NCBI RefSeq assembly: GCF_026210795.1
Contig: NC_089433.1
Coordinates: forward strand, 4,154,001-4,218,000
Reading direction: 5' to 3'
DNA from: Rhizophagus irregularis
Taxonomy: Eukaryota
DNA: 64,000 bases
Positions 12,643 to 64,000 of this stretch are shown one piece after another; the first letter of the stretch is position 1; each line of letters begins with the position of its first letter. Under the pieces are notes generated by a model. It was not told the DNA's origin. It was given only the letters and a program-made list of their open reading frames with translations, and did no database searches. A program made the position numbers and the translations under genes.

Positions 12643-14436
12643 ATAGGAATTGAAAAAAATGAAATTAAAGCATTTAAATTATATAATGAAGCAGCTGAAA
12701 AAGAATATATTGATTCAATTAATAATCTTGGATATTGCTATCAACATGGAATAGGGACTAAAAAAAATGAGGTTAAAGCATTTGAGTTATATAATGAAGC
12801 AGCTGAAAAAGAATATATTGATTCAATTAATAATCTTGGATATTGTAATCAATATGGAATAGGAACTGAAAAAAATGAAATTAAAGCATTTGAGTTATAT
12901 AATGAAGCAGTTGAAAAAGAATGTATTGATTCAATTTATAATCTTGGATATTGTTATCAACATGGAATAGGAACTGAAAGAAATGAGGTTAAAGCATTTG
13001 AGTTATATAATAAAGCAGCTGAAAAAGAATGTATTGATTCAATTTATAATCTTGGATATTGTTATCAACATGGAATAGGAACAGAAAAAAATGAAATTAA
13101 AGCATTTGGATTATATAAAAAAGCTGTTGAGAATGATGATATTGATGCAATATATAGACTTGCAGAATGTTATGAATATGGAATAGGAACTGAAAAAAAT
13201 GAAAATGAAGCATTTGAATTATATAAAAAATCAGCTGAAAAAGGAGATATTGGTGCAATATATAGACTTGTGGAATGTTATTGTTATGGAATAGGAACTG
13301 AGAAAAGTGATATTAAAGCATTTGAATTATATAAAAAGTTGGCTGAAAAAGGAGATATTGATTCAATATATAATCTTGCAGAATATTATTATTATGGAAT
13401 AGGAACTGAAACAAATGAAATTATAGCATTTAAATTATTTAACAAAGCAGCTGCAAAAGGTCATATTGATTCCATATATCAACTTGGGGAATGTTATTAT
13501 TATGGTGTAGGAACTGAAAAAAGTAAAATTAAAGCATTTGAGTTATATAATGAAGCAGTTGAAAAAGGGCATGTTATTTCAATATATCAACTTGGAAAAT
13601 GTTATCAACATGGAATAGGAACTGAAAGAAATGAGGTTAAAGCATTTGAGTTATATAATAAAGCAGCTGAAAAAGAATATATTGATTCAATTTATAATCT
13701 TGGATATTGTTATCAACATGGAATAGGAACAGAAAAAAATGAAATTAAGGCATTTGAATTATATAAGAATGCAGTTGAAAAAGGAAATATTGATGCAATA
13801 TATAGACTTGCAGAATGTTATTATTATGGAATAGGAACTGAAAAAAATGAAACAAAAGCCTTTAAACTATACAATAAAACTGCTGAAAAAGGTCATATTG
13901 ATTCAATATATAATCTTGGAAAATGCTATCAATATGGAATAGGAACTGAAATAAATAATTTTAAAGCATTTGAATTATATAATAAAGCTGCTAAAAAAGG
14001 CCATATTGATTCAATTAATGATCTTGGATATTGTTACCAACATGGAATAGGAACTGAAAAAAAAGAAAGTAAAGCATTTGAGTTATATAAGAAATCAGCT
14101 GAAAAAGGAGATGTTTATTTAATATATAATCTTGCAGAGTGTTTTTATTATGGAATAGGAACTAAAAAAAATGAAATTAAAGCATTTAAGTTATATAAAG
14201 AAGCTGCTGAAAAAGGTCATCTTACTTCGATGAATAATCTTGGAGAATGCTATCAATATGGAATAGGAACTGAAAAAAATGAGATTAAAGCATTTGAATT
14301 ATATAGTGAATTAACTGAAAAGGGCCACATATATTCAATATATGATCTTGGATATTGCTATGAGAATGGAATAGGAACTGAAAAAAATGTAATTAAAGCA
14401 TTTGAATTATATAAGAAATATGAAAATAAATTATAA
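12643..14436 (+). pseudogene. 5'-truncated Sel1-like repeat array (about 16 repeats of 36 aa), paralog of the gene at 29870-34576
   Basis: Open frame from 12643 (TGA immediately upstream; no ATG until near the 3' end). The first ~270 nt are identical to 31683-31954. No kinase exons seen directly upstream. Confidence 0.8.
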
Positions 14437-29869: not shown

Positions 29870-32800
29870 ATGGCAAGCAGTTCCAATAAAAAAAATATTG
29901 ATACAGACAAATTTATTCAATGGGTCGAGGGTGGCGTTGCTGAAGATTATATCAATTGTCATGTTTATAGCGAATTTAAAGATATTAGATTTATAGGTCA
30001 TGGAGCATTTGGTAAAGTATATAAAGCTACTTGGAAAAATTCAAATACTATTGTCGCATTAAAATCTTTTGAGAGAAATAATCTTATTATAAAAGAAATT
30101 GTCAATGAGGTACTGTCGTAATGTTTGTTAGCAGTTACTAGCTAGTAATACTGATTTATCAAATTTCTATGTATAGATAAAATTATTGCATAAAGTTAAT
30201 CTTCATGTAAATATTATTCGGTTTTTTGGTATCGCTAAAAGAGAAAGTAAGTACTAATTATACAAATTTAATTGAAAGATCAAATATAATGATTTAAATT
30301 AATTTATCCATTTTTTATTTAGACAATGAAGATAATATAGATCCAACTTCAAATTATTTGCTTATCCTTGAGTATGCAGATAGTGGTACATTAGGAAATT
30401 ATTTGAAAGATAATTTCAGTAAATTAGATTGGAACGTAAAATTGCAATTTGCAATTCAAATTGCTGATGCAGTCTCATGTATACATCAAAACAATATCGT
30501 TCATTGTGACTTAGTAAGTATTCTATGAACTTCTGATTTTTATTTTTAAATATAAATATACTAATTTAATGTTGCTTTATTAATAAATAGCATTCAGATA
30601 ATATATTAATTCATCAGAATATAGTAAAATTAGCAGACTTTGGACTTTCACGTAAATTAGCTGAAGTATCAACTCAAAATCATATATATGGAAAAATAGC
30701 TTATATTGATCCACAACATTTTCAAGAACAAATAGATAAAAATAATAAAGTTGGTTATCACTATAAACCAAATGAGAAATCAGACGTGTATAGTGTTGGT
30801 GTACTTCTATGGGAGATATCATCTGGGGAAAAACCATTTAAATCATATAATTGTTTTTATCACCAACCAAAATTAATGTTGGAAATTTCAGAGGGAAAAA
30901 GAGAGACACCCATTCCTAATACGCCAAATGATTACATTAACATTTATACAAGTATATTATAAAATATTTGTTTTGATTTACTAATATTAATTTACTAATA
31001 TTTATTCTAACTTATTTTCACAATTTATTTTCTTTTTTAGAATGTTGGAAAAATAACCCAAGTGATCGACCAGATATGCAACAAGTATTGTCAAATCTAA
31101 AATTAGTTAATTTGAATATAATTGACACAAACACTTTATTAATCAATGAAAACGATACTATAATTGCTATTGAAAACAATAAGTCACTCGGTAATGATAA
31201 TATTACTAATAATCAATTAAATTTTAATAATGAAGCTAATGAGCAGATTAATAATATTGATTTAAATAATGAAAATATCATTAATGAGTTATTGTCACTA
31301 TATGAAAATGCTATTCAAAGAGGAATTAGTAAAGAAGATTTTATTCAACTAATTAAGCAACACATAATAATGAAAAATAAAAGCAAAAGAGAAATATTTA
31401 ACTATTTATTAGATAACATGAATAAGCTACAAAATATTTTTCTATTAGCAATTTTTTATCATTATGGAATCATAACTAGTGCAAATGAAATTAAAGCATT
31501 TGAATTATATAAAGAAGCTACTGAAAAAGGTCATAATAATTCTATGAATTATCTTGGAAATTGTTATAAACATGGGATAGGAACTGAAAAAAATGAAATT
31601 AAAGCATTCGAATTATACAATGAAGCAGTTGAAAAGGGTCAAGTTAATGCAATAAGTAACTTAGGATATTGCTATCAATATGGAATAGGAATTGAAAAAA
31701 ATGAAATTAAAGCATTTAAATTATATAATGAAGCAGCTGAAAAAGAATATATTGATTCAATTAATAATCTTGGATATTGCTATCAACATGGAATAGGGAC
31801 TAAAAAAAATGAGGTTAAAGCATTTGAGTTATATAATGAAGCAGCTGAAAAAGAATATATTGATTCAATTAATAATCTTGGATATTGTAATCAATATGGA
31901 ATAGGAACTGAAAAAAATGAAATTAAAGCATTTGAGTTATATAATGAAGCAGTTAAAAAAGGGCATGTTATTTCAATATATCAACTTGGAAAATGTTATC
32001 AACATGGGATAGGAACTGAAAAAAATGAAATTAAAGCATTTAAATTATATAATGAAGCAGCTGAAAAAGAATATATTGACTCAATTAATAACCTTGGATA
32101 TTGTTATCAACATGGAATAGGAACTGAAAGAAATGAGGTTAAAGCATTTGAGTTATATAATAAAGCAGCTGAAAAAGAATATATTGATTCAATTCATAAT
32201 CTTGGATATTGTTATCAACATGGAATAGGAACAGAAAAAAATGAAATTAAAGCATTTGGATTATATAAAAAAGCTGTTGAGAATGATTATATTGATGCAA
32301 TATATAATCTTGCAGAATGTTATTATTATGGAATAGGAACTGAAAAAAATGAAAATGAAGCATTTGAATTATATAAAAAATCAGCTGAAAAAGGAGATAT
32401 TGGTGCAATATATAGACTTGTGGAATGTTATTGTTATGGAATAGGAACTGAGAAAAGTGATATTAAAGCATTTGAATTATATAAAAAGTTAGCTGAAAAA
32501 GGAGATATTGATGCAATATATAATCTTGCAGAATATTATTATTATGGAATAGGAACTGAAACAAATGAAATTAAGGCATTTGAATTATATAAGAATGCAG
32601 TTGAAAATAATCATATTGATTCAATGAAAGATCTTGGATATTGTTATCAACATGGAATAGGAACCAATAAAAATGATATTAAAGCATTTGAATTATATAA
32701 AAAAGCTGTTGAGAATAATCATGTTGGTTCAATGAATGATCTTGGATATTGTTATCAACATGGAATAGGAACTAAAAAAAACGAAATTAAAGCATTCGAA

Positions 32801-34576
32801 TTATATAAAAAAGCTGTTGAGAATAATCATATTGATTCAATGAATGATCTTGGATATTGTTATCAATATGGAATAGGAACTGAAAAAAACGAAATTAAAG
32901 CATTTGAATTATATAAAAAAGCTGTTAAAAATAATCATATTAATTCAATGAATGATCTTGGATTTTGTTATCAACATGGAATAGGAACTGAAAAAAATGA
33001 AATTAAAGCATTTGTATTATATAAAAAAGCTGTTGAAAATAATCATATTGATTCAATTAATAATCTTGGATATTGTTATCAACATGGAATAGGAACTGAA
33101 AAAAATGAAATTAAAGCATTTGGATTATATAAAGAAGCAGTTGAGAATGATTATATTGATGCAATATATAGACTTGCAGAATGTTATTGTTATGGAATAG
33201 GAACTGAAAAAAATGAAAATGAAGCATTTGGATTATATAAAAAGTTAGCTGAAAAAGGAGATATTGATGCAATATATAATCTTGCAGAATATTATTATTA
33301 TGGAATAGGAACTGAAACAAATGAAATTAAGGCATTTGAATTATATAAGAATGCAGTTGAAAATAATCATATTGATTCAATGAAAGATCTTGGATATTGT
33401 TATCAACATGGAATAGGAACCAATAAAAATGATATTAAAGCATTTGAATTATATAAAAAATCAGCTGAAAAGGGAGATATTGATGCAATATATAGACTTG
33501 TAGAATGTTATTGCTATGGAATAGGAACTGAAAAATGTGATATTAAAGCATTTGAATTATATAAAAAGTTAGCTGAAAAAGGAGATATTGATGCAATATA
33601 TAATCTTGCAGAATATTATTATTATGGAATAGGAACTGAAAAAAATGAAATTAAAGCATTTGAATTATATAAGAATGCAGTTGAAAATAATTATATTGAT
33701 TCAATGAAAGATCTTGGACACTGTTATCAACATGGAATAGGAACTGAAAAAAATGAGATTAAAGCATTTGAATTATATAAAAAAGCTGTTGAGAATAATC
33801 ATATCGATTCAATGAATGATCTTGGATATTGTTATCAACATGGAATAGGAACTGAAAAAAATGAAATTAAAGCATTTGAATTATATAAAGAAGCTTCTAA
33901 TAAAGGTTATATTACTTCAATGAATGATCTTGGATATTGTTATCAACATGGAATAGGAACTGAAAAGAATGAAATTAAAGCATTTGAATTATATAAAAAA
34001 GCTGCTGAGAAAGATCATATTATTTCAATGAGTAATCTTGGATATTGTTATCAACATGGAATAGGAACTATAAAGAATGAAATTATAGCATTTAAATTAT
34101 TTAAAAAAGCAGCTGCAAAAGGTCATATTGATTCCATATATCAACTTGGGGAATGTTATTATTATGGTGTAGGAACTGAAAAAAGTAAAATTAAAGCATT
34201 TGAATTATATCAAGAAGTTGCTGAAAAAGGTCATATTGATTCAATTAATGATCTTGGATATTGTTATCAACATGGAATAGGAACTGAAATAAACAAAATT
34301 AAAGCATTTAAATTATATAAATTAGCTGCTAGTAAAGGCCATATTGACTCAATGAATAATCTTGGAGAATGCCATCAATATGGAATAGGAACTGAAAAAA
34401 ATGAAATCAAAGCATTTGAATTATATAATGAATCTGCTGATAAAGGTCACATTTACTCAATATATAATCTTGGATATTGTTATGAAAATGGAATAGGAAC
34501 TGCAAAGGATGAGGTTAAAGCATTTGAATTATATGGGGAATATGAAAGTAAATTATTATTACCTATAAAACATTAA
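29870..34576 (+). CDS. Tyrosine-kinase-like non-RD protein kinase fused to about 29 Sel1-like repeats (~1465 aa)
   Basis: Exons 29870-30109, 30177-30246, 30323-30513, 30591-30951 and 31041-34576 splice in frame. Motifs GHGAFGKV, VALK, HCDLHSDN, DFG, YIDP, SDVYSVG, CW...P..RP, followed by 108-nt repeats. Confidence 0.92.
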
Positions 34577-34599: not shown

Positions 34600-35788
34600 T
34601 GCACACTATGTTGACTTTTAATTGAATTTTTTGAATTATATTGTCAATTTTTTCACTTCACATGTCCAGTTTGTAAAATTGATTTTCAAATCAATTTTTA
34701 ATTGTATTTTTTGAATAAACTTGTCAATTTCTTTATTTCCACTAGTCCAGTTTACAAAATTATTTTTTAAATCATTTGTTAAACATGTTTTACACCATTT
34801 ATCTCCTATATTAGTATATTGATCGCCACATTTTTCACAAAAATATCCGCTTGGGAAAACCATAATATAATCTTTTGTATATAAATTTCGAGATATCCCA
34901 TATATATTAATGTCACGTGAATAACAGTAATTTGTATATGCCCTAACCTATAAAATTTTATAATTTTTAAATATTATTATATAAAAAGTGATCAAATTTA
35001 TAAAAAAATTAAAAAAATTTCATACCACATTTACAAATCCATTAGTAATACTTTGTGAGTTATATAAACATTTTAAAGTAATTATTTCATTTCGATCTCT
35101 ATTATATAATGAACCATTCTTCCATATTGCTGAATATACTTTATCAAAATCTCTTTGTCCTATTTCTTTAATATAATTAAATTGATTGTATGGTATCCAA
35201 TTTATATATTCATAAGAATCCATTATTAATTGAATTTCTTTAATTCTATATTCGCTGATCCGGTTTGTAAAATTGTTTCCTAAATCTGGTACGCAAAATT
35301 CTTTTGTAATAATAGAAATAATAGATTGATCATCCCATTTTTCATAATAATGTTCATTAAAGAAAACCATAAAATAATCCTTTGTATTTGGATTTTGAGA
35401 AATTCCATACAAAATATTATTAACATTACTATAACGACATTTAATTGAATATTCTTTAACCTATTAAAACGCAAAAATTAAAAGATTGATATTGAAAAAT
35501 ATAATATATATATGTACTATATATGTATATAAAATTCATTAAAAATTAAAAATTTCATACCTTATTTATAAATTCATTTGTAATATTTAAACATTTTAAG
35601 GTAACTGATTTATTTTGAATTTTACAATATTTGTAATCATAAGCATTCTTCCATATTGCTGAAAATACTTTATTTGGATAATCTCTTTCTCTCGTTTCTT
35701 TTATATTATCAAACTGATCGTATGGTATCCATACAAATATATCATAAGGAGTATCATGCTCAATTTTTTTTATTTCCATTGGTGTCAA
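34600..35788 (-). pseudogene. Truncated multi-module kinase gene (2-3 N-lobe modules, no C-lobe)
   Basis: Modules WIPY.QF..IKE...KV.SAIWK...TLKCL and YGISQNP..KDY, plus CEKC...WCKTC...NWTSGNKEID. It ends near a CAGTCAGCCCTC MITE-like end at about 34582, convergent with the Sel1 gene. Confidence 0.75.
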
Positions 35789-37485
35789 TAAATTTTGAAG
35801 TATAATTTTTTTTTTTCAGTGAAAAGATCGAAAAGATCGCGACTTTATTCTGATTTGATCCCGTGTTTTTTTTTCGAATGTAATACTAGTGTAACGTATT
35901 CAACGTATTCATCACGGAAATATGATTGAAATTTTCAGGTTGATTTTGATATACTATATTAAGTAAATTTCATTTCAGATCTACATTTAAAAGTTATGTA
36001 CAACAATTATTTTTACTGTTACAGTACGATCAGACAATCAGTACATGTGCTAACTAAAAGAATAAAGAAAAAGAAAAAAGAAATTTAACGCCAAGATAAA
36101 TTGTGTAACTTCATTTGTCCAAATTACTTTCATTAATTAACTGAAAATCAATTTTAAAAATGTAATTATAAATTTCTTTTTAAGAATACGAATCGAGTTT
36201 AATAATGTGCACAGACGAATCAAAAAAATTTAGATGCATATTACAATTATAATTATTACATGTATTTTTTTTTTTTTTTTTAGTAAGGATTATATTAAAC
36301 TTATTATTATTTATCTCTTTCTTTTATCTTATTTAGAGAACAAAAATTTTTTATTATTCACACAAAATTGGGTAGAATTTATTATTATTATAAATTTAAG
36401 AGCGGGTAAAGCTTTTTTGAATAAAGGATTATAATACTATCATTAGATTTCATTGTTCATTAATCATCATGCGATTTTGAGGCCTATTCCCAATGTGAAT
36501 TATATAAATGTCCTATTAAGGAAGTAATTTTACAATTATGGCCCTTTCAATAATATCTCTATGTACCACAAAAATACGTGATTTTTTTTTTATTGGAACC
36601 GCAGCTCATAGCGCAATTAAGAAATACTAAATAACCTCTCGGATCAAAATTTTTCACTCAAAGAGGAGTGAAACAAAATGGGTGGCTTTATTGTGTAAAG
36701 TTATGAGTAAGCAATTTTTAAAATTATAAATGTTCCTATAACTTGATTGCCATGCTTATTATTAAAAGGATACCGATAACAAAATAAATGTGTAGCGAAA
36801 AAGTCATGAAAAAATTGATGATACACTTACTATATTAATTCAAATAATAAAATCAAAGCCGTATCAGTTAAGAAAAAACGTCAATTAAATATAATTTATC
36901 GAATCGAACTCCAACGTTAATATACATTCATTGACGAAATATTATTTAATAATTTTAGATCTTTAGAAAATTTTACGATTATGAACGTCATTATTTCCGT
37001 AAAAAGAAAAAATTTTTTTTTCTATTTATGATATTATAACGAAAAAAAGTATATGAAAAATTCCTAATATCTAATTTCATAAAACGATATCGTGTAATCT
37101 TTAATTGCAACAATTTCATAGATCAGTTTTTGATTTGATGCTACAGAATTTGGAAAATTCGTTACGATATTATTTATTAAAAAAAAGTTACAGTACATAT
37201 AACAATAATCATCTCAACGTTGATTTGCGCTTCAAAAATTTTGCGCATCGAGAATCTGGTCTTTTGTTGATATAATTAGCCAAAATTTTTATATACGCAG
37301 TAGAATATATTTATTTTAACTGATATTTAAATTTTTTTTATTAACGTTAATGTATAATTAATTAATAATATATAACAATACTTTTGGTGATAGGTAAAGT
37401 CTATATAATATATATAAAAATTTTTTTTTTTATCTATAGTAACTCTATTTTTACGGATTTAGTTATTAGTTTAATTTCACTATTT

Positions 37486-53299: not shown

Positions 53300-54036
53300 A
53301 TGTTATATCGCGAAATTATACTTAATATCGGTGAGATTTTTTCATTAATTGTGAAATTGGTCATGAAAATTTATCAGTACATGGTACATAGGGTATCAGT
53401 ACATTGAGGTTTGACTGTAAGTGTTTTATATCTTTATAATCATATGGTTTTTGGATGAATTTGATAATTTAATTGAACGATGAATTTGTCATCTTATTTA
53501 ATGAAATTGCAGACAAATAAAATTTACAAATTATATTATTTATTTTGATAAGTTAGAGCGTACTGTAAAAGCATTGCACGTCAGTAATTAATTTTATTTT
53601 TCTTTTTTGTTATTGTTGTTGAAATATTAATTTTTAGTATACAAATTTATTTATTTATTTATTTACTATATGAACATTTCAAGTAATGAGATTGTTAAAA
53701 TGTTCAAAATATTTAAAAATCACAAGTCAATTAATGACATTTATTTATCACCATAATTTCTGGTATTTCACAATATTAATATTCTGTTATTCAGTTGTTC
53801 TTTTTTATTTTATTAAATAATAAAAATTGCCTTATTTCAGTTATTTGTAAAAACTGTTTGCTTAATTACAAACTGATCTATTCATGTTTACATGTAATCT
53901 ATAATCATTGGCATATACAGTATGTATATTATCATTTACACCAAGAACTTTTGAATTTTCTCAGCAAATTTAATTCTGATCCATTTCATTGTTTCAAATA
54001 TAAATATTTGCATTTTTTTTTAATAAACAAACAATT

Positions 54037-57000
54037 CTATATTTCGCAGTCCAAACATTCAGAATACTTTGGAAGATCATTTGTAAAGGAATTAAGTAAT
54101 TGTGATGTATAAACAGCTTGTGGATGAGTAATTGATTGTCTTCTTTCCTCAAAAAATGTTTTTTTGTATTCTTCTACTTTTTTAAATTGCTGCTCAATAT
54201 CATAATGTTGCTGTTTTTTTTCTCCAAATAACAAACTTGAATCTGGCACATAGGATTCATGAAATAACTGAATAAATTCTACTATTTCAGTTGCCTTTGG
54301 TCTGTAATCTGGATTTGAATTCCAACATTTCTTCATTAATTCAGTATAACATTTTGGTACTTCTAGCTCATTTATTTCAGGTCTAATTCCCTCACAGATA
54401 TCTAATGCTAACATTTCATTATGCGCACAATTGAAAAAAGGTTGGTTTCCTGTTGCTACAAAATACATAATCATACCAAAGCTATATACATCTGCTGTTT
54501 GAGTATAAGGTTCTCCTCTTAACACTTCAGGAGCCACGTAAGGCATAACTCCATAAAGTTTTGTTTTGTCTGTATTGTCAACTCTTCCACATAATCCCAT
54601 ATCTGATATGCACATTAAATTATAATTATCCAAGGTAATATACATTGATAATATATTTCCTGTATGAAGATCACGATGAACCAGTTGTTTTTCATGAATT
54701 TCTTCAAGACCAGTAATAATATTAAATAATGTATTTATTTTATATGACCAGTCAAATTTACTATAGTGTTTGTTTACCCAATTATATAAACTTCCACCTT
54801 CTGCATAATCAAGAACCATAATATAGTCATTTGTGTTAGGATTTTGAGATAACCCATATATTGAAAGAACATGATTAAGTTCTTTGATGGAATATCCTTT
54901 AATCTATTAAAGTATAATAATAATTATTATTATATTGAAAAGTTTTAAATTGGATAAAAAATTTCATACCTCATTTAAAAATTCAATAGTAATATTTTGT
55001 GAATTGTATAATTGTTTTAAAGCAACTTTTTTCTGATTTCTTGAATATTCATATTCATTATAAGATGATGGTCCATCTTTCCATATTGCTGAATATATTG
55101 TAGCAAACCCACCTTTACCTATTTCTTTAATATTACTAAATCGATTGTGTGGTATCCATTCAAATATTGTATCATCTGCATTATTAATTTTTAATTGTAT
55201 CTCTCGTATTAAATTATCAATTTTTATATTTTCACTAGTCCAGTTTGTAAAATTTCTTTTTAAATCATTTATTTTACATGGTTTACACCATTTATAATAA
55301 GTATCTGTATATTCTTTATCACATTTTTCGCAATATTTATTTTCAATTACTATAATATAATCTTTTGTATTAGGATCTCGAGATATTCCATATATATTAC
55401 TAATTGAATATTCTTCAACCTATTAACATTAAATGTTATTATTAAAAATATATATATATGAATAACATGATTATTTAAATAGAATTTATGGAAAATTACC
55501 TCATCAATAATATTTTGTGAGTACTTTAAAGTAACTCTTAATTTCAGTCTTCTTATCTGATCTTTACTATAAAGATTATCATAATATAAAAAATCATTCT
55601 TCCATATTGCCGAATATATTCTAGTAAAATCATCATTTATTTTCTTAATATTACTAAACTGATTGTATGGAATCCATTCAAATACCATATCCCATTTGCT
55701 ATTAATCTTCAATTGCATATTTTGGATCAGATTATCAATCTTATCGTTATTACTGGTCCAGTTTTTAAAATTTAATTCTAAATAATTTACTTGACATTTC
55801 TTACACCATTCAAATTTAAAATTATTTTCTGTATATTCTTCACCACAACTTTTACAACACAAATCATATTGAAAAACAATAATATATTTTAAATCTTGGT
55901 TTTGAGATATTCCATATACTGGATTATCATTTCTTGATAAATATTTTTTAACCTATAAAGACAAAAAAAAAATAAATTATAATATTTTCCAAAAAAAAAG
56001 AAATTAAAAGTTTTAATACCTCATTTAAGAATTCATCAATATTTTGTAAATTATATAATTTCAACGAAACTTTTTTATTTGATTCTCTTGCCCATTTCTT
56101 ATTATTATGAAGTAATGGACCATCATTCCATACTGCTGAATATATTATTGTACAATTAGTTCTATTTATTTCTTTAATATCATTAAATCGATTGTATGGT
56201 ATAAACTCAAATATTATATCTATAAAAAAGTTAATTTTCAACTGCTTTTGTTTGACTAAATTATCAATTTTTTCATTTCCACTCCAATTAAATAAAAATT
56301 TTTTCAAATAATTTTTGTAGCACAATAAACAAATATATTCTTTAATTTCACCACATTTTTCGCATATTCTACTAAATCCATTTTCAAGTACTATAATATA
56401 ATTTTTCGTGTATGGATTTTGAGAGATTCCAAATATTTTACCATAATATTTATTTAAGTCTTCCTTAATCTATTAAAGTATAAAATTTAATTATTATTAC
56501 CATATTAAATAAAGTATTTAAATTAAATAAAGAAAAATATACCTCATTTAGTAATCCACTATATAATTTTAAAGCAACCTTTATATCCTGCAAATTTCTT
56601 GTATATTCATTTTTATATTTATCAAAACCTAATGGACCATCATTCCATATTGCTGAATATACTTTATCAAAACCTTCTTCACCTATTTCTTTAATGTCAT
56701 TAAACTGGTTGTATGGTATCCATTCAAATATAATATCATCTAGTTTATTAATTTCTAATTGCATTTCTTGAATTAAATTATCAATTTTTTCATTTCCACT
56801 GGTCCAGTTTGTAAAATTTTGTTTTAAATTATTCGTTTGACACGATAAGCACCATTCATAATTTGCATCAAATCTACCTTTATATTTTTTATCACATTTT
56901 TTACAATATAACTTTGGAAAAACTATAATATAGTCTCCCATATCTGGATTTTGTGACACTCCATATATATTAAGACATTTATCAAACTTAATCTATTAAA

Positions 57001-58026
57001 AATAAAAAAAATTAATAAAGAATATTTTCAAATTACGGTACATCTAATCCAAAGAATTCATACCTCATTTAAAAGTTTAATAATATTTTGTGAATTATAA
57101 AAATATTTTAAAGTAACCACTTTATTAGATTTTCTTGCCCATTTCTTCTTGTAATATAATGGGCCATCATTCCATTTTGCAAAATATAATGTATCAATAT
57201 CATCATCACTTATTTTATTTATTTTATGGATATCACTTAATTGATCGTATGGTATCCATTCAAGTACCCATGCTGATTCATAATTGACGCCTGATTGCAT
57301 TACCTGAATTAAATTATCAATTTTTTCATTTCCACTGCCGACCAAATTTTCTTTAAAATAAACTATTTGACATGATTCACACCATTCTTTAATTATATTT
57401 GTATACTTTTTACCACATTTTTTACAATATATTTCTTGAAAAACAATGATATAATCCATTGTATTTGGGCATTGAGATATTCCATACATTCTAAGAACTT
57501 CGCCAATATATGTTATCGAATATTTTTTGCCCTAATAGACGAAAAATAAAAAATATTCTTAATAAAAGATACAATAATTAGGGGTACGAAGAAATTTTAT
57601 TATTACCTGATCTGGCTGATCAATAAAAAATTCATCAATGATATTTTTTAAGTTATATAATTTTAAAGCAACTTTCTTATTCGGCTGATTTCTTGTATAT
57701 TCATTTTTATATTTATCATAATCTAATGGACCATCTTTCCATATTGCTGAATATACTTTATCAAAACTCTCTTCACCTATTTCTTTAATATTATTAAATT
57801 GATCAAATGGTATCCATTCAAATATTAAATCATCCAATTCATTAATTTCTAATTGCATCTCTTGAATTAAATTATCAATTTTTTCATTATCACTGGTCCA
57901 ATTTATAAAATTCTTTTTTAAATTATTTATTTGACATGATTTACACCATTCATACTTTGCATCATATTTACTCTTATATTTTTCGTCACATTTTTTGCAC
58001 TGACCGTAGTTGTCTTGATATGACAT
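54037..58026 (-). CDS. Tyrosine-kinase-like kinase with six tandem Cys-motif + N-lobe modules (~1185 aa, 7 exons)
   Basis: Exons 58026-57607, 57531-57064, 56992-56543, 56469-56020, 55952-55500, 55419-54970 and 54903-54037, all phase 0 and in frame. The last exon has HRDLHTGN, DMG, YVAPE and DVYSFG. Confidence 0.92.
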
Positions 58027-58201
58027 TTATACAAAATTATTAATTTAAATTTTGAGAGAAATTGTAAATGAGTTTATTTCACAAAAAAAAAAAAGAAAAA
58101 AAGGAAAGTAATAAAGAACCTATTTTAAAACAGTTTGTAAGACCATTAATTATTATTTATTATGTTCTTGTATTACTCTTCCTTGTGTAATCATTCAGCT
58201 C

Positions 58202-59462
58202 AGATCACTTGTTAAAACTTGTAAAACTGTAAGACGGAATTGTAAAACAGAAATGTGACACAGTAACACCTGACGAAAATCGCCAATTTCTTATTAAAAA
58301 TTTCTTTTGCAAGTATATTTAAGATAGAGGTTTGCATATACTAACTCATAATTTGTTTTATATTCATATAAATAAATAAATATATTTATTTATTTAATTT
58401 TGTAAGAAATCACAAATGAGAAATATACTGTATATAAAAAAAAATCAGAGACTGCCAAAAAAATTTTACAAATCAATAGATTTCCACCAGTAACTATTTA
58501 AAAAAGGAATGGATTTTTTTGGCGCAAACTCAAAACTGATCTTTTCATGTATACTTTTCGGGTCCTCAAATGAAACAAATATTTATTGGTTATAGAGTAT
58601 GCTGGTTGTGACTTGTGAATTACCACAATTCTATTTAAAAGAGAATTTTAATAAACTCAAATAGAATGATAAATATAAATTAGCACTAAAACTTGCAAAT
58701 TCTGTAAAAATGTTTGCATAATAAGGGAATTGTGATTTGTTAATATAATAATTTATTTTATATTGATTTTTTTTTATCAAGCAATAAACCAATATATATA
58801 TTCATTTTAGCATACTTGTACATCAAAATAATATAAAGTTGGCAGACTTTAGTTACTAATGCATCATATAATCTAGTAGATGTCCTTGGTGTAGTTCCTA
58901 TATTAACCAAAATATTAAATAATATTAAAAATAAAAGCCAACACCATAAATTAAATACAATCAGCTATTGAAATGGTCATAAAAATTTTACATTAATTAT
59001 TTATTTTAATTTATTCATTGGAAATGATTATTATTTGATAATTTATATTTAACAATTGGAAAAGTTAGAAAAGATTTATTTAAATTACAAACTAAGAAAT
59101 TTGTAAAATATTTACCAGTTCGGATCACCTGTAAAAACTTGTAAAACGGAATTGTAAAACGGAAATGTGATTATGTGACGCAGTAACACCTCGTCAATGT
59201 CTTAATTAAAATGTAAGTGTATTAAGATGGAGATTACATATATTGGTTCATAATTTGTTTTACATTCATATAAACAAAAAAAACAATATTTTTACTTAAT
59301 TTTGTAAGAAATCACAAATGATACCCATAATATATATAAAAAAATCTACAAAGCGATAAATTTTCACCAGTAATATTTAAGAGGAGAGAATTTTTTTGGC
59401 TGGTTGTACGCAAACTCGAAACTGACCTTTTCATGTATACTTTTCGGGGTCCTCAAATGAAA
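58202..59462 (+). repeat. Direct repeat pair (about 58202-58574 and 59123-59462)
   Basis: Both copies run GATCAC.TGT.AAAACTTGTAAAAC...GTAAGAAATCACAAATGA...CTTTTCATGTATACTTTTCGGGTCCTCAAATGAAA. Confidence 0.85.
58575..58960 (+). pseudogene. Decayed internal kinase fragment of the kinase-Sel1 type
   Basis: YLLVIEYAG...DKYKLALKLANSV..LHNKGI...ILVHQNNIKLADF remnants. Confidence 0.7.
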
Positions 59463-63020: not shown

Positions 63021-63938
63021 TTAATTTAACTGCTTGTAATAAATAAAATTATTGCTTGATATAAATAATTCACAGTCTAAACATTCAGAATTAAGATCAT
63101 ATTTTGGAAGATCTTTTGTAAAGGGATTAAGTAATCGAGATGTATAAACAGCTTGTGGATGAGTTGCCGATTGTCTTTTTTCCTCTAAAAATAAGAAATT
63201 TGATTCTTTGTATTCTTCTGCTTTCTCAAATTGCTCATTAATATCAAAAGATAACAGCTCATCTTTTTCACTTTTCAAATTGGAGCTATAAGAATCATAA
63301 AATAACTCAATTAATTCTTTTATTTCAGTTGCTTTTGGTCGGTTGTTTGGATTTGAATTCCAACATCTCTTCATTAAATCAATATAACATTTTGGTGCTT
63401 CTGGTTCGTTTATTTCAGGCCTAATTCCTTTGCAGATATCTAACACTAAAATTTCATCATGCGCACAATTGCAAAAAGGTTTCCTGCCAGTTGCTACATA
63501 ATACATAATCATACCAAAGCTGTATATATCTGCCGCTTGAGTATAAGGTTTTCCTCTCAACACTTCAGGAGCTACATAAGGCATAACTCCATAAATTTCC
63601 GTTTTATCTGTACTATCAACTTTTCCACATAATCCCATGTCTGATACGCATATTATATAATTATCTAAGGTATTATACATTGATAATATATTTCCTGTAT
63701 GAAAATCACGATGAACCATATTTTCCTGATGAACTATTTCGAGACCTTCTATAATACTTAACAATGCTTTAATATTATATAACCAATCTAGTTTATTATA
63801 ATATTTGTTTACCCAATTATATAAATCTCCACCTTCCGCATAATCAAGAACCATAACATAATTTTTTGTATCAGGATTTTGAGATATTCCATATATTGAA
63901 AGAACATACTTAAATATTCCAATAGAATATCCTTTAAC
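63021..63938 (-). CDS. Last exon (C-lobe) of a paralogous tyrosine-kinase-like kinase; upstream exons lie outside the window
   Basis: Acceptor CAG at 63941-63939. YGISQNP, HRDFHTGN, DMG, YVAPE, HPQAVYTSRLL; clearly similar to 54037-54903. Confidence 0.92.
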   Translation of the reverse strand, partial: VKGYSIGIFKYVLSIYGISQNPDTKNYVMVLDYAEGGDLYNWVNKYYNKLDWLYNIKALLSIIEGLEIVHQENMVHRDFHTGNILSMYNTLDNYIICVSDMGLCGKVDSTDKTEIYGVMPYVAPEVLRGKPYTQAADIYSFGMIMYYVATGRKPFCNCAHDEILVLDICKGIRPEINEPEAPKCYIDLMKRCWNSNPNNRPKATEIKELIELFYDSYSSNLKSEKDELLSFDINEQFEKAEEYKESNFLFLEEKRQSATHPQAVYTSRLLNPFTKDLPKYDLNSECLDCELFISSNNFIYYKQLN

Positions 63939-64000
63939 CTGTTATAACATAATAATTGTTAATGATTATTAAAAGTTATAAATTAAATGAAAGAAAAAAT

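What the first reader, a model, noticed from the sequence alone, without database searches (positions are those of the whole stretch)
54037..58026. Six interchangeable phase-0 N-lobe exons in front of one kinase C-lobe: possible splice-based combinatorial kinase
Seen: six ~450-nt exons (420, 468, 450, 450, 453, 450 nt). Each encodes CxxC..(W)CxxC, then (NWTS)GNEKID-like, EWIPY and a kinase N-lobe. Each ends at about the same site (after the alphaC ..NE/DE in five; exon 1 ends DQ) in phase 0. Only module 6 has a full Gly loop (GKGGF); modules 1 and 3 keep a partial loop and VALK. Any donor could splice in frame to the C-lobe exon. Inference: exon skipping could swap N-lobes, or the extra modules act as decoy/sensor domains in one protein, analogous to tandem-kinase immune proteins.
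Basis: partly seen in the sequence, partly recalled or inferred. Interest (0 to 1): 0.7.

Follow-up and report, generated by a model that had tools for sequence, protein, structure and literature searches.

The report
Kinase led by five spare half-kinases
A symbiotic root fungus has a gene predicted to make one long protein in which five copies of the front half of a kinase enzyme, which have lost their ATP-gripping loop but stay conserved, sit ahead of one intact-looking kinase and likely act as binding or sensing units rather than as parts swapped by splicing.

Summary
The exons are real. Seven GT-AG phase-0 exons give a 1,185-aa ORF, identical to an annotated Rhizophagus irregularis protein.

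One correction: the exons are not whole N-lobes. The intron cuts each lobe after alphaC, and beta4-beta5 come from the next exon. The same intron sits in a non-array kinase, so phase symmetry is a by-product of duplication.

Splice swapping is not supported:
- RNA contigs show only consecutive junctions (1-2, 2-3, 4-5), at low depth.
- The GxGGF-type loop is in 66 of 77 terminal lobes but 1 of 557 inner lobes, so swapped kinases would lack it.
- Module order is kept across three Rhizophagus species.

The inner modules are under purifying selection (omega 0.12-0.31) and are predicted to fold as a Cys4 finger, two helices and an N-lobe. The gene belongs to a large Glomeromycotina family with 2-15 such repeats, always ahead of the C-lobe. 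Ten literature searches found no description of it.

Best reading: one kinase with an array of dead half-kinase binding or bait domains, like the partial kinase duplication in wheat RWT4. The function is inferred. The scan noted a pseudogenised array of this kind in another genome.

The parts
57607..58026 (-). Exon 1 (coding part): ATG, Cys4 finger, two helices, beta1-alphaC of dead N-lobe 1 (GEESF, VALK)
57532..57606 (-). Intron 1, GT-AG, phase 0; seen spliced in an RNA contig of run X4
57064..57531 (-). Exon 2: beta4-beta5 of lobe 1, then finger, helices and beta1-alphaC of lobe 2 (no Gly loop, VTLK)
56993..57063 (-). Intron 2, GT-AG, phase 0; seen spliced in contigs of runs X2 and X4 (two studies)
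56543..56992 (-). Exon 3: beta4-beta5 of lobe 2, then finger, helices and beta1-alphaC of lobe 3 (GEEGF, VALK)
56470..56542 (-). Intron 3, GT-AG, phase 0 (predicted; not seen in RNA)
56020..56469 (-). Exon 4: beta4-beta5 of lobe 3, then lobe 4 to alphaC (no Gly loop, VSLK)
55953..56019 (-). Intron 4, GT-AG, phase 0; seen spliced in contigs of runs X6 and X4
55500..55952 (-). Exon 5: beta4-beta5 of lobe 4, then lobe 5 to alphaC (no Gly loop, VTLK)
55420..55499 (-). Intron 5, GT-AG, phase 0 (predicted; junction not listed in RNA)
54970..55419 (-). Exon 6: beta4-beta5 of lobe 5, then finger, helices and beta1-alphaC of the catalytic N-lobe (GKGGF at residue 848, VALK at 879, alphaC Glu)
54904..54969 (-). 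Intron 6, GT-AG, phase 0 (predicted; junction not listed in RNA)
54037..54903 (-). Exon 7: beta4-beta5 of the catalytic N-lobe, hinge, TKL-type C-lobe (HRDLHTGN, DMG, APE), helical tail, stop
53800..54036 (-). Likely 3' UTR: covered by contigs of all four runs laid
   Evidence: contigs do not show strand or end

Best explanation
The locus is predicted to encode one soluble 1,185-aa tyrosine-kinase-like (TKL) protein whose five upstream repeats are predicted to fold as dead half-kinases (Cys4 finger, two helices, N-lobe) and likely act together, in the same chain, as a protein-binding bait or scaffold array that controls the single intact-looking kinase at the end. Shown: the exon structure; three consecutive splice junctions; loss of the Gly loop in inner lobes; purifying selection; fixed module order among relatives; a family with 2-15 repeats in which the C-lobe is always last. 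Predicted: the folds. Inferred: the array grew by repeated tandem duplication of a unit carrying one pre-existing phase-0 intron. Once a lobe lost its C-lobe partner, its ATP-contact residues were released while its fold was kept. Also inferred: proteins that target or dock on kinase N-lobes (foreign proteins or partner kinases) would bind the spare lobes and switch the terminal kinase.
For: ORF intact and 100% identical to EXX72815.1. Junctions 1-2, 2-3 and 4-5 in RNA contigs. AlphaFold2 gives mean pLDDT 78.9 with the same element order in all six modules. A model with no C-lobe matches kinase N-lobes: all 50 VIA rows shown are kinase domains, best Z 8.1, rmsd 3.2, 92 aligned; Foldseek gives 4 hits at E<=0.001 to RIPK2 and EGFR. 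The terminal domain matches BRAF, RIPK1 and Roco4. Terminal versus inner modules: GxG[GS]F 66 of 77 vs 1 of 557; beta3 AxK 75 of 77 vs 165 of 557; core Trp 76 of 77 vs 539 of 557; beta4 Gly 77 of 77 vs 552 of 557. Omega is 0.12-0.15 for the window's five inner modules and 0.28-0.31 for 18 inner-type modules; 2dL = 126 against omega = 1. In 6 of 12 six-module proteins examined (the closest ones, from R. irregularis, R. diaphanus and R. clarus), 36 of 36 modules match the window module of the same position. The C-lobe is last in 68 of 68 representatives that have one. The fastest-evolving parts are predicted surface segments: the linker before EWIPY (omega 0.70) and the beta2-beta3 hairpin (0.59). 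Analogue: RWT4 KDup.
Against: No ligand, partner or activity was shown. Junctions 3-4, 5-6 and 6-7 were not seen, so one full-length mRNA rests on gene models and frame conservation; other annotations of this locus split it (P0130, P0131). Positive selection is weak: no segment has omega above 1, and 5 of 121 sites are nominally above 1 in a crude uncorrected test. Simple Nei-Gojobori omega was higher (median 0.60, 13 of 189 inner pairs above 1), although GC3 of 0.17 biases it upward. pTM is 0.49, so the arrangement of modules is unresolved, and VIA Z scores of 6-8 are middling. About a third of inner modules lack a full Cys4 match (365 of 557 have it) and some proteins drop it entirely, so the finger is not essential. 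32 of 120 models have no C-lobe.
Confidence: 0.55

Rival explanations
1. Splice-based lobe swapping: donors of exons 1-5 join the last exon and give kinases with different N-lobes.
For: All six introns are phase 0 at an equivalent site, so any skip is in frame. The last exon supplies beta4-beta5, so a skip would give a topologically complete chimeric lobe. The beta3 Lys is kept in all five inner modules here and in 481 of 557 family-wide.
Against: The intron pre-dates the arrays (L017). Of 12 joints listed, 4 rows are consecutive introns; the other 8 have non-splice ends, sides of 20-23 letters or extra letters, as expected from paralogues. Only 1 of 557 inner lobes keeps the Gly loop, so products would be impaired kinases. 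Introns of 66-80 nt favour intron definition, and exon skipping is rare in fungi (recalled).
Confidence: 0.07
2. Skipping among exons 2-5 only, keeping exons 6-7, changes the number or order of bait modules on an active kinase.
For: In frame by construction. It would keep the catalytic lobe. Module number varies widely between genes.
Against: No such junction among those listed. Fixed six-module order across species. Variation in module number is already made at DNA level: 20 of 88 proteins have a module pair at least 85% identical.
Confidence: 0.1
3. The repeats are by-products of unequal crossing-over in a duplication-prone gene family, kept only because a misfolded or frameshifted upstream module would ruin the kinase behind it; they have no role of their own.
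For: Very large kinase expansion in this fungus (2,533 kinases). Recent module duplications. No clear positive selection.
Against: In-frame loss of whole modules would be easy, yet the six-module order persists in three species at 64-97% identity. Inner modules diverge about as slowly as the kinase exon in the R. diaphanus orthologue: 90-96% versus 94%.
Confidence: 0.15
4. The spare lobes regulate kinases directly: they fold back on the terminal kinase, or dock on C-lobes or N-lobes of paralogous kinases in trans, as auto-inhibitors or allosteric dimer partners rather than baits for foreign proteins.
For: alphaC, beta4 and beta5 cores are conserved in inner modules. Many array-only gene models exist (32 of 120; 82 of 150). 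TKL kinases such as RAF and RIPK dimerise through N-lobe surfaces, and baculovirus PK2 captures N-lobes (both recalled).
Against: The positions that face ATP and the C-lobe (Gly loop, beta3 Ala, alphaC-beta4 loop, hinge) are the ones that gain most entropy in inner modules. Many array-only models may be truncated annotations.
Confidence: 0.13

Closest known systems
Expanded PF07714 tyrosine-kinase-like kinases of Rhizophagus irregularis (Lin 2014 PMC3886924; Maeda 2018 PMC6123716; Manley 2023 PMC10234402)
   Same: The terminal domain is a PF07714/PF00069 kinase; the same protein is in databases as 'Rad53p' or 'protein kinase domain-containing'.
   Different: The passages read report the expansion only; none mentions N-lobe repeats. 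Pfam has no family for the repeat: no match for modules 1-5 better than E = 0.036.
Wheat RWT4 tandem kinase with integrated partial kinase duplication (KDup), bioRxiv 10.1101/2024.04.30.591956
   Same: A duplicated N-terminal kinase fragment sits directly in front of an active kinase; in RWT4 it is needed for effector binding (passages).
   Different: RWT4 has one KDup that lacks the active-site Lys, plus a full pseudokinase. Here there are five (family 2-15) complete N-lobes, mostly with the Lys, each with a Cys4 finger and helices, and no second C-lobe. Fungal, with no known ligand; an independent origin is inferred.
Cereal tandem kinases / kinase fusion proteins with an extended beta-finger (bioRxiv 10.1101/2025.07.14.664643)
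   Same: A protruding hairpin on a kinase N-lobe; here the hairpin is among the faster-evolving parts.
   Different: The cereal finger extends beta4-beta5 and is Poaceae-specific; the hairpin here lies between beta2 and beta3.
JAK JH2-JH1 pseudokinase-kinase and EGFR kinase-domain duplication
   Same: A dead or extra kinase copy in front of an active kinase; these are structural neighbours of the model.
   Different: Those copies are whole bilobal domains; here only N-lobes are repeated.
Dscam-type mutually exclusive tandem exon arrays (recalled)
   Same: Tandem, equal-phase, homologous exons.
   Different: Here consecutive exons are joined to each other in RNA, so they are not mutually exclusive.

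Membership tests
TKL / PF07714 protein kinase (terminal domain) | Bilobal kinase fold with profile match above the curated cut-off | tested here: met
   Exon 7: PF07714 119 bits against a cut-off of 23.1; Foldseek BRAF, RIPK1, Roco4 at E about 1e-15
TKL / PF07714 protein kinase (terminal domain) | Catalytic motifs: Gly loop, beta3 Lys, alphaC Glu, HRD..N, DFG-like, APE | tested here: met
   GKGGF 848, VALK 879, FLNE 894, HRDLHTGN 973, DMG, APE 1021; His replaces the usual residue after HRDL and DMG replaces DFG, both typical of the family
TKL / PF07714 protein kinase (terminal domain) | Phosphotransfer activity | not testable with these tools
   Needs an assay
Plant tandem kinase proteins / kinase fusion proteins | Two complete kinase or pseudokinase domains in one chain | tested here: not met
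   One C-lobe only
Plant tandem kinase proteins / kinase fusion proteins | Extended beta4-beta5 finger | tested here: inconclusive
   The model shows the extra hairpin between beta2 and beta3; the cereal HMM was not available
Plant tandem kinase proteins / kinase fusion proteins | Direct binding of a foreign effector leading to defence | not testable with these tools
   No ligand known
RWT4-type integrated partial kinase duplication (works like) | Partial N-terminal kinase copy, homologous to the protein's own kinase, placed in front of it and non-catalytic | tested here: met
   Modules 1-5 are 46-62% identical to module 6, have the N-lobe fold and lack the Gly loop and C-lobe
Mutually exclusive / cassette exon array (Dscam-like) | Homologous exons of equal phase in tandem | tested here: met
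Mutually exclusive / cassette exon array (Dscam-like) | Neighbouring variant exons are not joined to each other | tested here: not met
   Junctions 1-2, 2-3 and 4-5 seen
Mutually exclusive / cassette exon array (Dscam-like) | Exon-skipping junctions exist | tested here: inconclusive
   None among listed joints, but depth is low and contigs drop rare forms
Cys4 (treble-clef-like) zinc finger | Two conserved CxxC pairs that bind zinc | tested here: inconclusive
   Four invariant Cys in all six modules; only a weak match to ribosomal eL37, E = 0.019; metal binding untested

The most novel reading that the evidence does not exclude
Arbuscular mycorrhizal fungi have turned the kinase N-lobe into a repeat domain and built a large, copy-number-variable family of intracellular receptors from it. 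Strings of 2-15 dead N-lobes act as baits for foreign or non-self proteins and fire one terminal TKL kinase: a fungal, array-scale counterpart of cereal tandem-kinase immune receptors that would explain part of the kinome expansion in these fungi.
Probability: 0.25. Interest if true: 0.85.

Novelty: new variant of a known kind. Interest (0 to 1): 0.52.

Why it matters
The function of the roughly 2,500 kinases of Rhizophagus is an open question, and they are usually counted only by Pfam domain. This architecture shows that a sizeable subfamily carries an unannotated repeat made of stand-alone kinase N-lobes, which are normally stable only with a C-lobe (recalled). It gives a defined, soluble ~150-aa unit that can be expressed and tested for fold, zinc binding and partners. 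If the units are baits, fungi and cereals reached the same half-kinase decoy solution independently. The splice-shuffling idea, which would have been more surprising, found no support.

Tried and rejected
- No whole genome was held for this window, so there is no genome-wide census; counts come from database hits ranked by summed score, which favours long arrays.
- No indexed holder was on record as RNA.
- Raw poly(A) runs X22-X24 (about 25% of each read) gave 482-532 laid reads each, about 90% partial matches from paralogues. No junction of this gene was among the 15 joints shown; 52 were not shown. This is uninformative on skipping.
- X1 behaved as DNA: its contigs run through introns.
- In one search the stretch 56299-56592 had no cover in any of the four runs, so junction 3-4 is untested. 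A hole in contigs proves nothing, and the DNA run's contigs also break near 56268-56289.
- Small-window omega values from IQ-TREE stuck at the start value 1.0 and were discarded; one search replaced them. The fixed-omega comparison was not a clean test and is not used.
- The idea that the freed Gly loop is under positive selection was tested and rejected: omega 0.40.
- A tree of 640 modules on 93 columns needs 32 terminal/inner changes against 74 for shuffled labels. This suggests repeated origins of inner modules, but the tree is short and unsupported, so it is not relied on.
- Many VIA rows extend to model residue 177, placing the next module's Cys finger where kinase beta7 lies. This is only a hint that the finger caps the open lobe face, because that part of the model has pLDDT 59-69.
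- The ESM Atlas returned only Mucoromycota clusters; a second query did not complete.
- No complex prediction was run: an N-lobe with a C-lobe would tend to pass by likeness to solved kinases.
- Literature searches found no description of N-lobe repeat arrays. Tisserant 2013 was not held, and its text or supplement may describe these architectures. No supplements were read.
Full report
Observation. The region is AT-rich eukaryotic DNA. On the minus strand seven exons (57607-58026, 57064-57531, 56543-56992, 56020-56469, 55500-55952, 54970-55419, 54037-54903) are separated by six GT-AG introns of 66-80 nt, all phase 0, and give an open frame of 1,185 aa. The spliced product is 100% identical to EXX72815.1 of Rhizophagus irregularis (annotated 'Rad53p') and 93-97% identical to three other full-length models, including one from R. 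diaphanus. The organism is therefore R. irregularis or a very close relative. Two other database models split the same locus (P0130, P0131).

Correction to the anatomy. The exons are not whole N-lobes. Exons 2-7 all begin with a YG(I/V/L)S..P...DYI segment. In the AlphaFold2 model of the full protein (95-row alignment, mean pLDDT 78.9, pTM 0.49) every module shows the same order: Cys4 finger, two helices, beta1-beta2, an inserted hairpin, beta3, alphaC, then two strands supplied by the next exon. A second model covered modules 3-4 with no C-lobe (P0130, pLDDT 78.4). It matched kinase domains in all 50 VIA rows shown, typically over residues 72-164, which straddle the exon 3/4 junction (best Z 8.1, rmsd 3.2, 92 aligned; middling Z). 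Foldseek gave 4 hits at E<=0.001, to RIPK2 and EGFR. So the protein repeat is finger + helices + complete N-lobe, and the intron cuts each lobe after alphaC. The terminal domain has a TKL-type fold (BRAF, RIPK1, Roco4) with all catalytic motifs and no hydrophobic segment. Pfam has no family for the repeat. The Cys motif only weakly resembles the eL37 zinc finger (E = 0.019).

Why all exons are phase 0. In 22 metagenome loci, some redundant, a heuristic found a phase-0 intron at the same place before 26 of 37 beta4 motifs. These include L017, where the lobe is not part of an array but follows another kinase's C-lobe and runs into its own. The intron is thus a family feature. Duplicating a unit that contains it gives equal-phase exons automatically (inference), so symmetry is no evidence of alternative splicing.

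RNA. Three raw poly(A) runs gave mostly paralogue reads and no listed junction of this gene. Contigs of four other runs, laid at 96% likeness, gave 12 listed joints. Four rows are exact introns of this gene: 1-2 in X4, 2-3 in X2 and X4, 4-5 in X6 and X4. The other eight have non-splice ends, 20-23-letter sides or extra letters and are best read as paralogues. No exon-skipping junction is listed. Junctions 3-4, 5-6 and 6-7 were not seen, depth is low, and contigs drop rare forms, so rare skipping is not excluded and a single full-length mRNA is not directly shown. The exons are clearly not mutually exclusive.

Family. One exon found 562 longer proteins among 701 candidates. The best 120 come from R. 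irregularis, R. clarus, R. diaphanus and Glomus cerebriforme. They carry 5-15 module matches; 88 end in a C-lobe and 32 have none (ranking favours long arrays). A module profile hits 3,076 representatives at E<=0.001, many of them presumably ordinary kinases of the wider family. Of the best 150, 68 have a C-lobe, always last, and module counts run from 2 to 10 or more. Three of 10 looked up are from Acaulospora morrowiae and show the same pattern of a Gly loop only in the last lobe, so arrays extend beyond Rhizophagus and Glomus.

Terminal versus inner lobes. Among modules covering more than 75% of the profile, terminal (n = 77) and inner (n = 557) lobes differ sharply at ATP-contact sites and not in the core: GxG[GS]F 66 vs 1; beta3 AxK 75 vs 165; Lys plus alphaC Glu 75 vs 305; core Trp 76 vs 539; beta4 Gly 77 vs 552; four Cys 55 vs 365. 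A skip to the last exon would therefore almost always give a kinase without the Gly loop. In this gene even modules 1 and 3 have Glu at the second Gly, a change known to impair BRAF (recalled). Some subfamilies lack the finger altogether. Twenty of 88 proteins hold a module pair at least 85% identical, showing continuing duplication.

Selection. Codon models with frequency correction give omega 0.12-0.15 for the window's five inner modules and 0.28-0.31 for 18 inner-type modules (two duplicate loci and the Gly-loop modules were left out). 2dL is 126 against neutrality. Uncorrected Nei-Gojobori values are higher (median 0.60, 13 of 189 pairs above 1) but are biased by GC3 of 0.17. The freed Gly loop is not under positive selection (0.40). 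The fastest segments are the linker before EWIPY (0.70) and the beta2-beta3 hairpin (0.59), with 5 of 121 sites nominally above 1: a weak hint only. In the R. diaphanus orthologue the modules are 90-96% identical and the kinase exon 94%. In the six closest of 12 six-module proteins examined, all 36 modules match the window module at the same position; the other six do not, so they are separate arrays. The modules are thus positionally distinct and maintained, not interchangeable.

Mechanism. Most likely (0.55) this is one cytoplasmic kinase whose spare, dead N-lobes form a binding array that baits or scaffolds proteins and controls the terminal kinase. The architecture, loss of catalytic features and constraint are shown, the folds are predicted, and the binding role is inferred by analogy. 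Rivals are functionless but fold-constrained duplication (0.15), direct regulation of kinases by the spare lobes (0.13), internal skipping that tunes module number (0.10) and lobe swapping by splicing (0.07).

Comparison and novelty. The kinase expansion of this fungus is well known: Lin 2014, PMC3886924; Maeda 2018, PMC6123716; Manley 2023, PMC10234402, 2,533 kinases; a review, PMC4219462; Sel1-bearing MLKL-like kinases, PMC8778642. I saw only 'kinase'-type passages of these, and none mentions N-lobe repeats. The closest functional precedent is wheat RWT4, whose single partial kinase duplication is required for effector binding (bioRxiv 10.1101/2024.04.30.591956, passages). The cereal extended beta-finger lies at beta4-beta5, unlike the hairpin here (bioRxiv 10.1101/2025.07.14.664643, first third read). 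The protein is not a tandem kinase in the strict sense, since it has one C-lobe. Ten searches found no account of the array. The library lacks most subscription papers and Tisserant 2013, so prior mention is possible. An earlier scan note describes a pseudogenised array of kinase front ends in another fungal genome; I did not test it.

Verdict: a real feature, a new variant of a known kind (partial kinase duplication, expanded into a repeat array), interest 0.52.

Noticed in passing
window 63021-63941 (-): A second beta4-beta5 + C-lobe exon, 68% identical to the end of this protein, on the same strand about 5 kb upstream; its upstream exons lie beyond the window. Likely a tandem paralogue.
   Followed up: partly
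window 34680-35900 (-): A degenerate array of three partial modules with the same intron positions and no C-lobe; the third breaks down after the SGNKEID-like motif.
   Followed up: partly
window 30300-34576 (+) and 12643-14436 (+): A kinase followed by a very long Sel1-like repeat ORF (1,199 aa open frame), and a second, closely similar Sel1-like repeat ORF (repeat name recalled from the motif).
   Followed up: no
window about 40197 (-): An isolated kinase catalytic-loop relic (HRDFH) among stops.
   Followed up: partly
window about 58190-58560 and 59130-59460: Two similar non-coding blocks upstream of the start codon, seen by eye; possibly a duplicated promoter piece or a transposon remnant.
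   Followed up: no
L017 (also L018): A kinase C-lobe end runs directly into a second complete kinase of this family, so true tandem kinases seem to exist alongside the N-lobe arrays.
   Followed up: partly
P0208 / P0292 (GET65190.1, GET65191.1): Two models on one contig differ only by 26 residues (beta3 and alphaC) at a module end, consistent with an annotated alternative donor in a paralogue; this is not whole-module skipping.
   Followed up: partly
P0002, P0003, P0008: A subfamily with shorter repeats that lack the Cys4 finger, up to 13-15 copies.
   Followed up: partly
window 54213 and 57142: One contig of run X14 has a 1-base insertion in a T run in the tail after the C-lobe (variant or error); one contig of X4 has an in-frame 3-base insertion in exon 2 like the extra Lys in P0015.
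   Followed up: no
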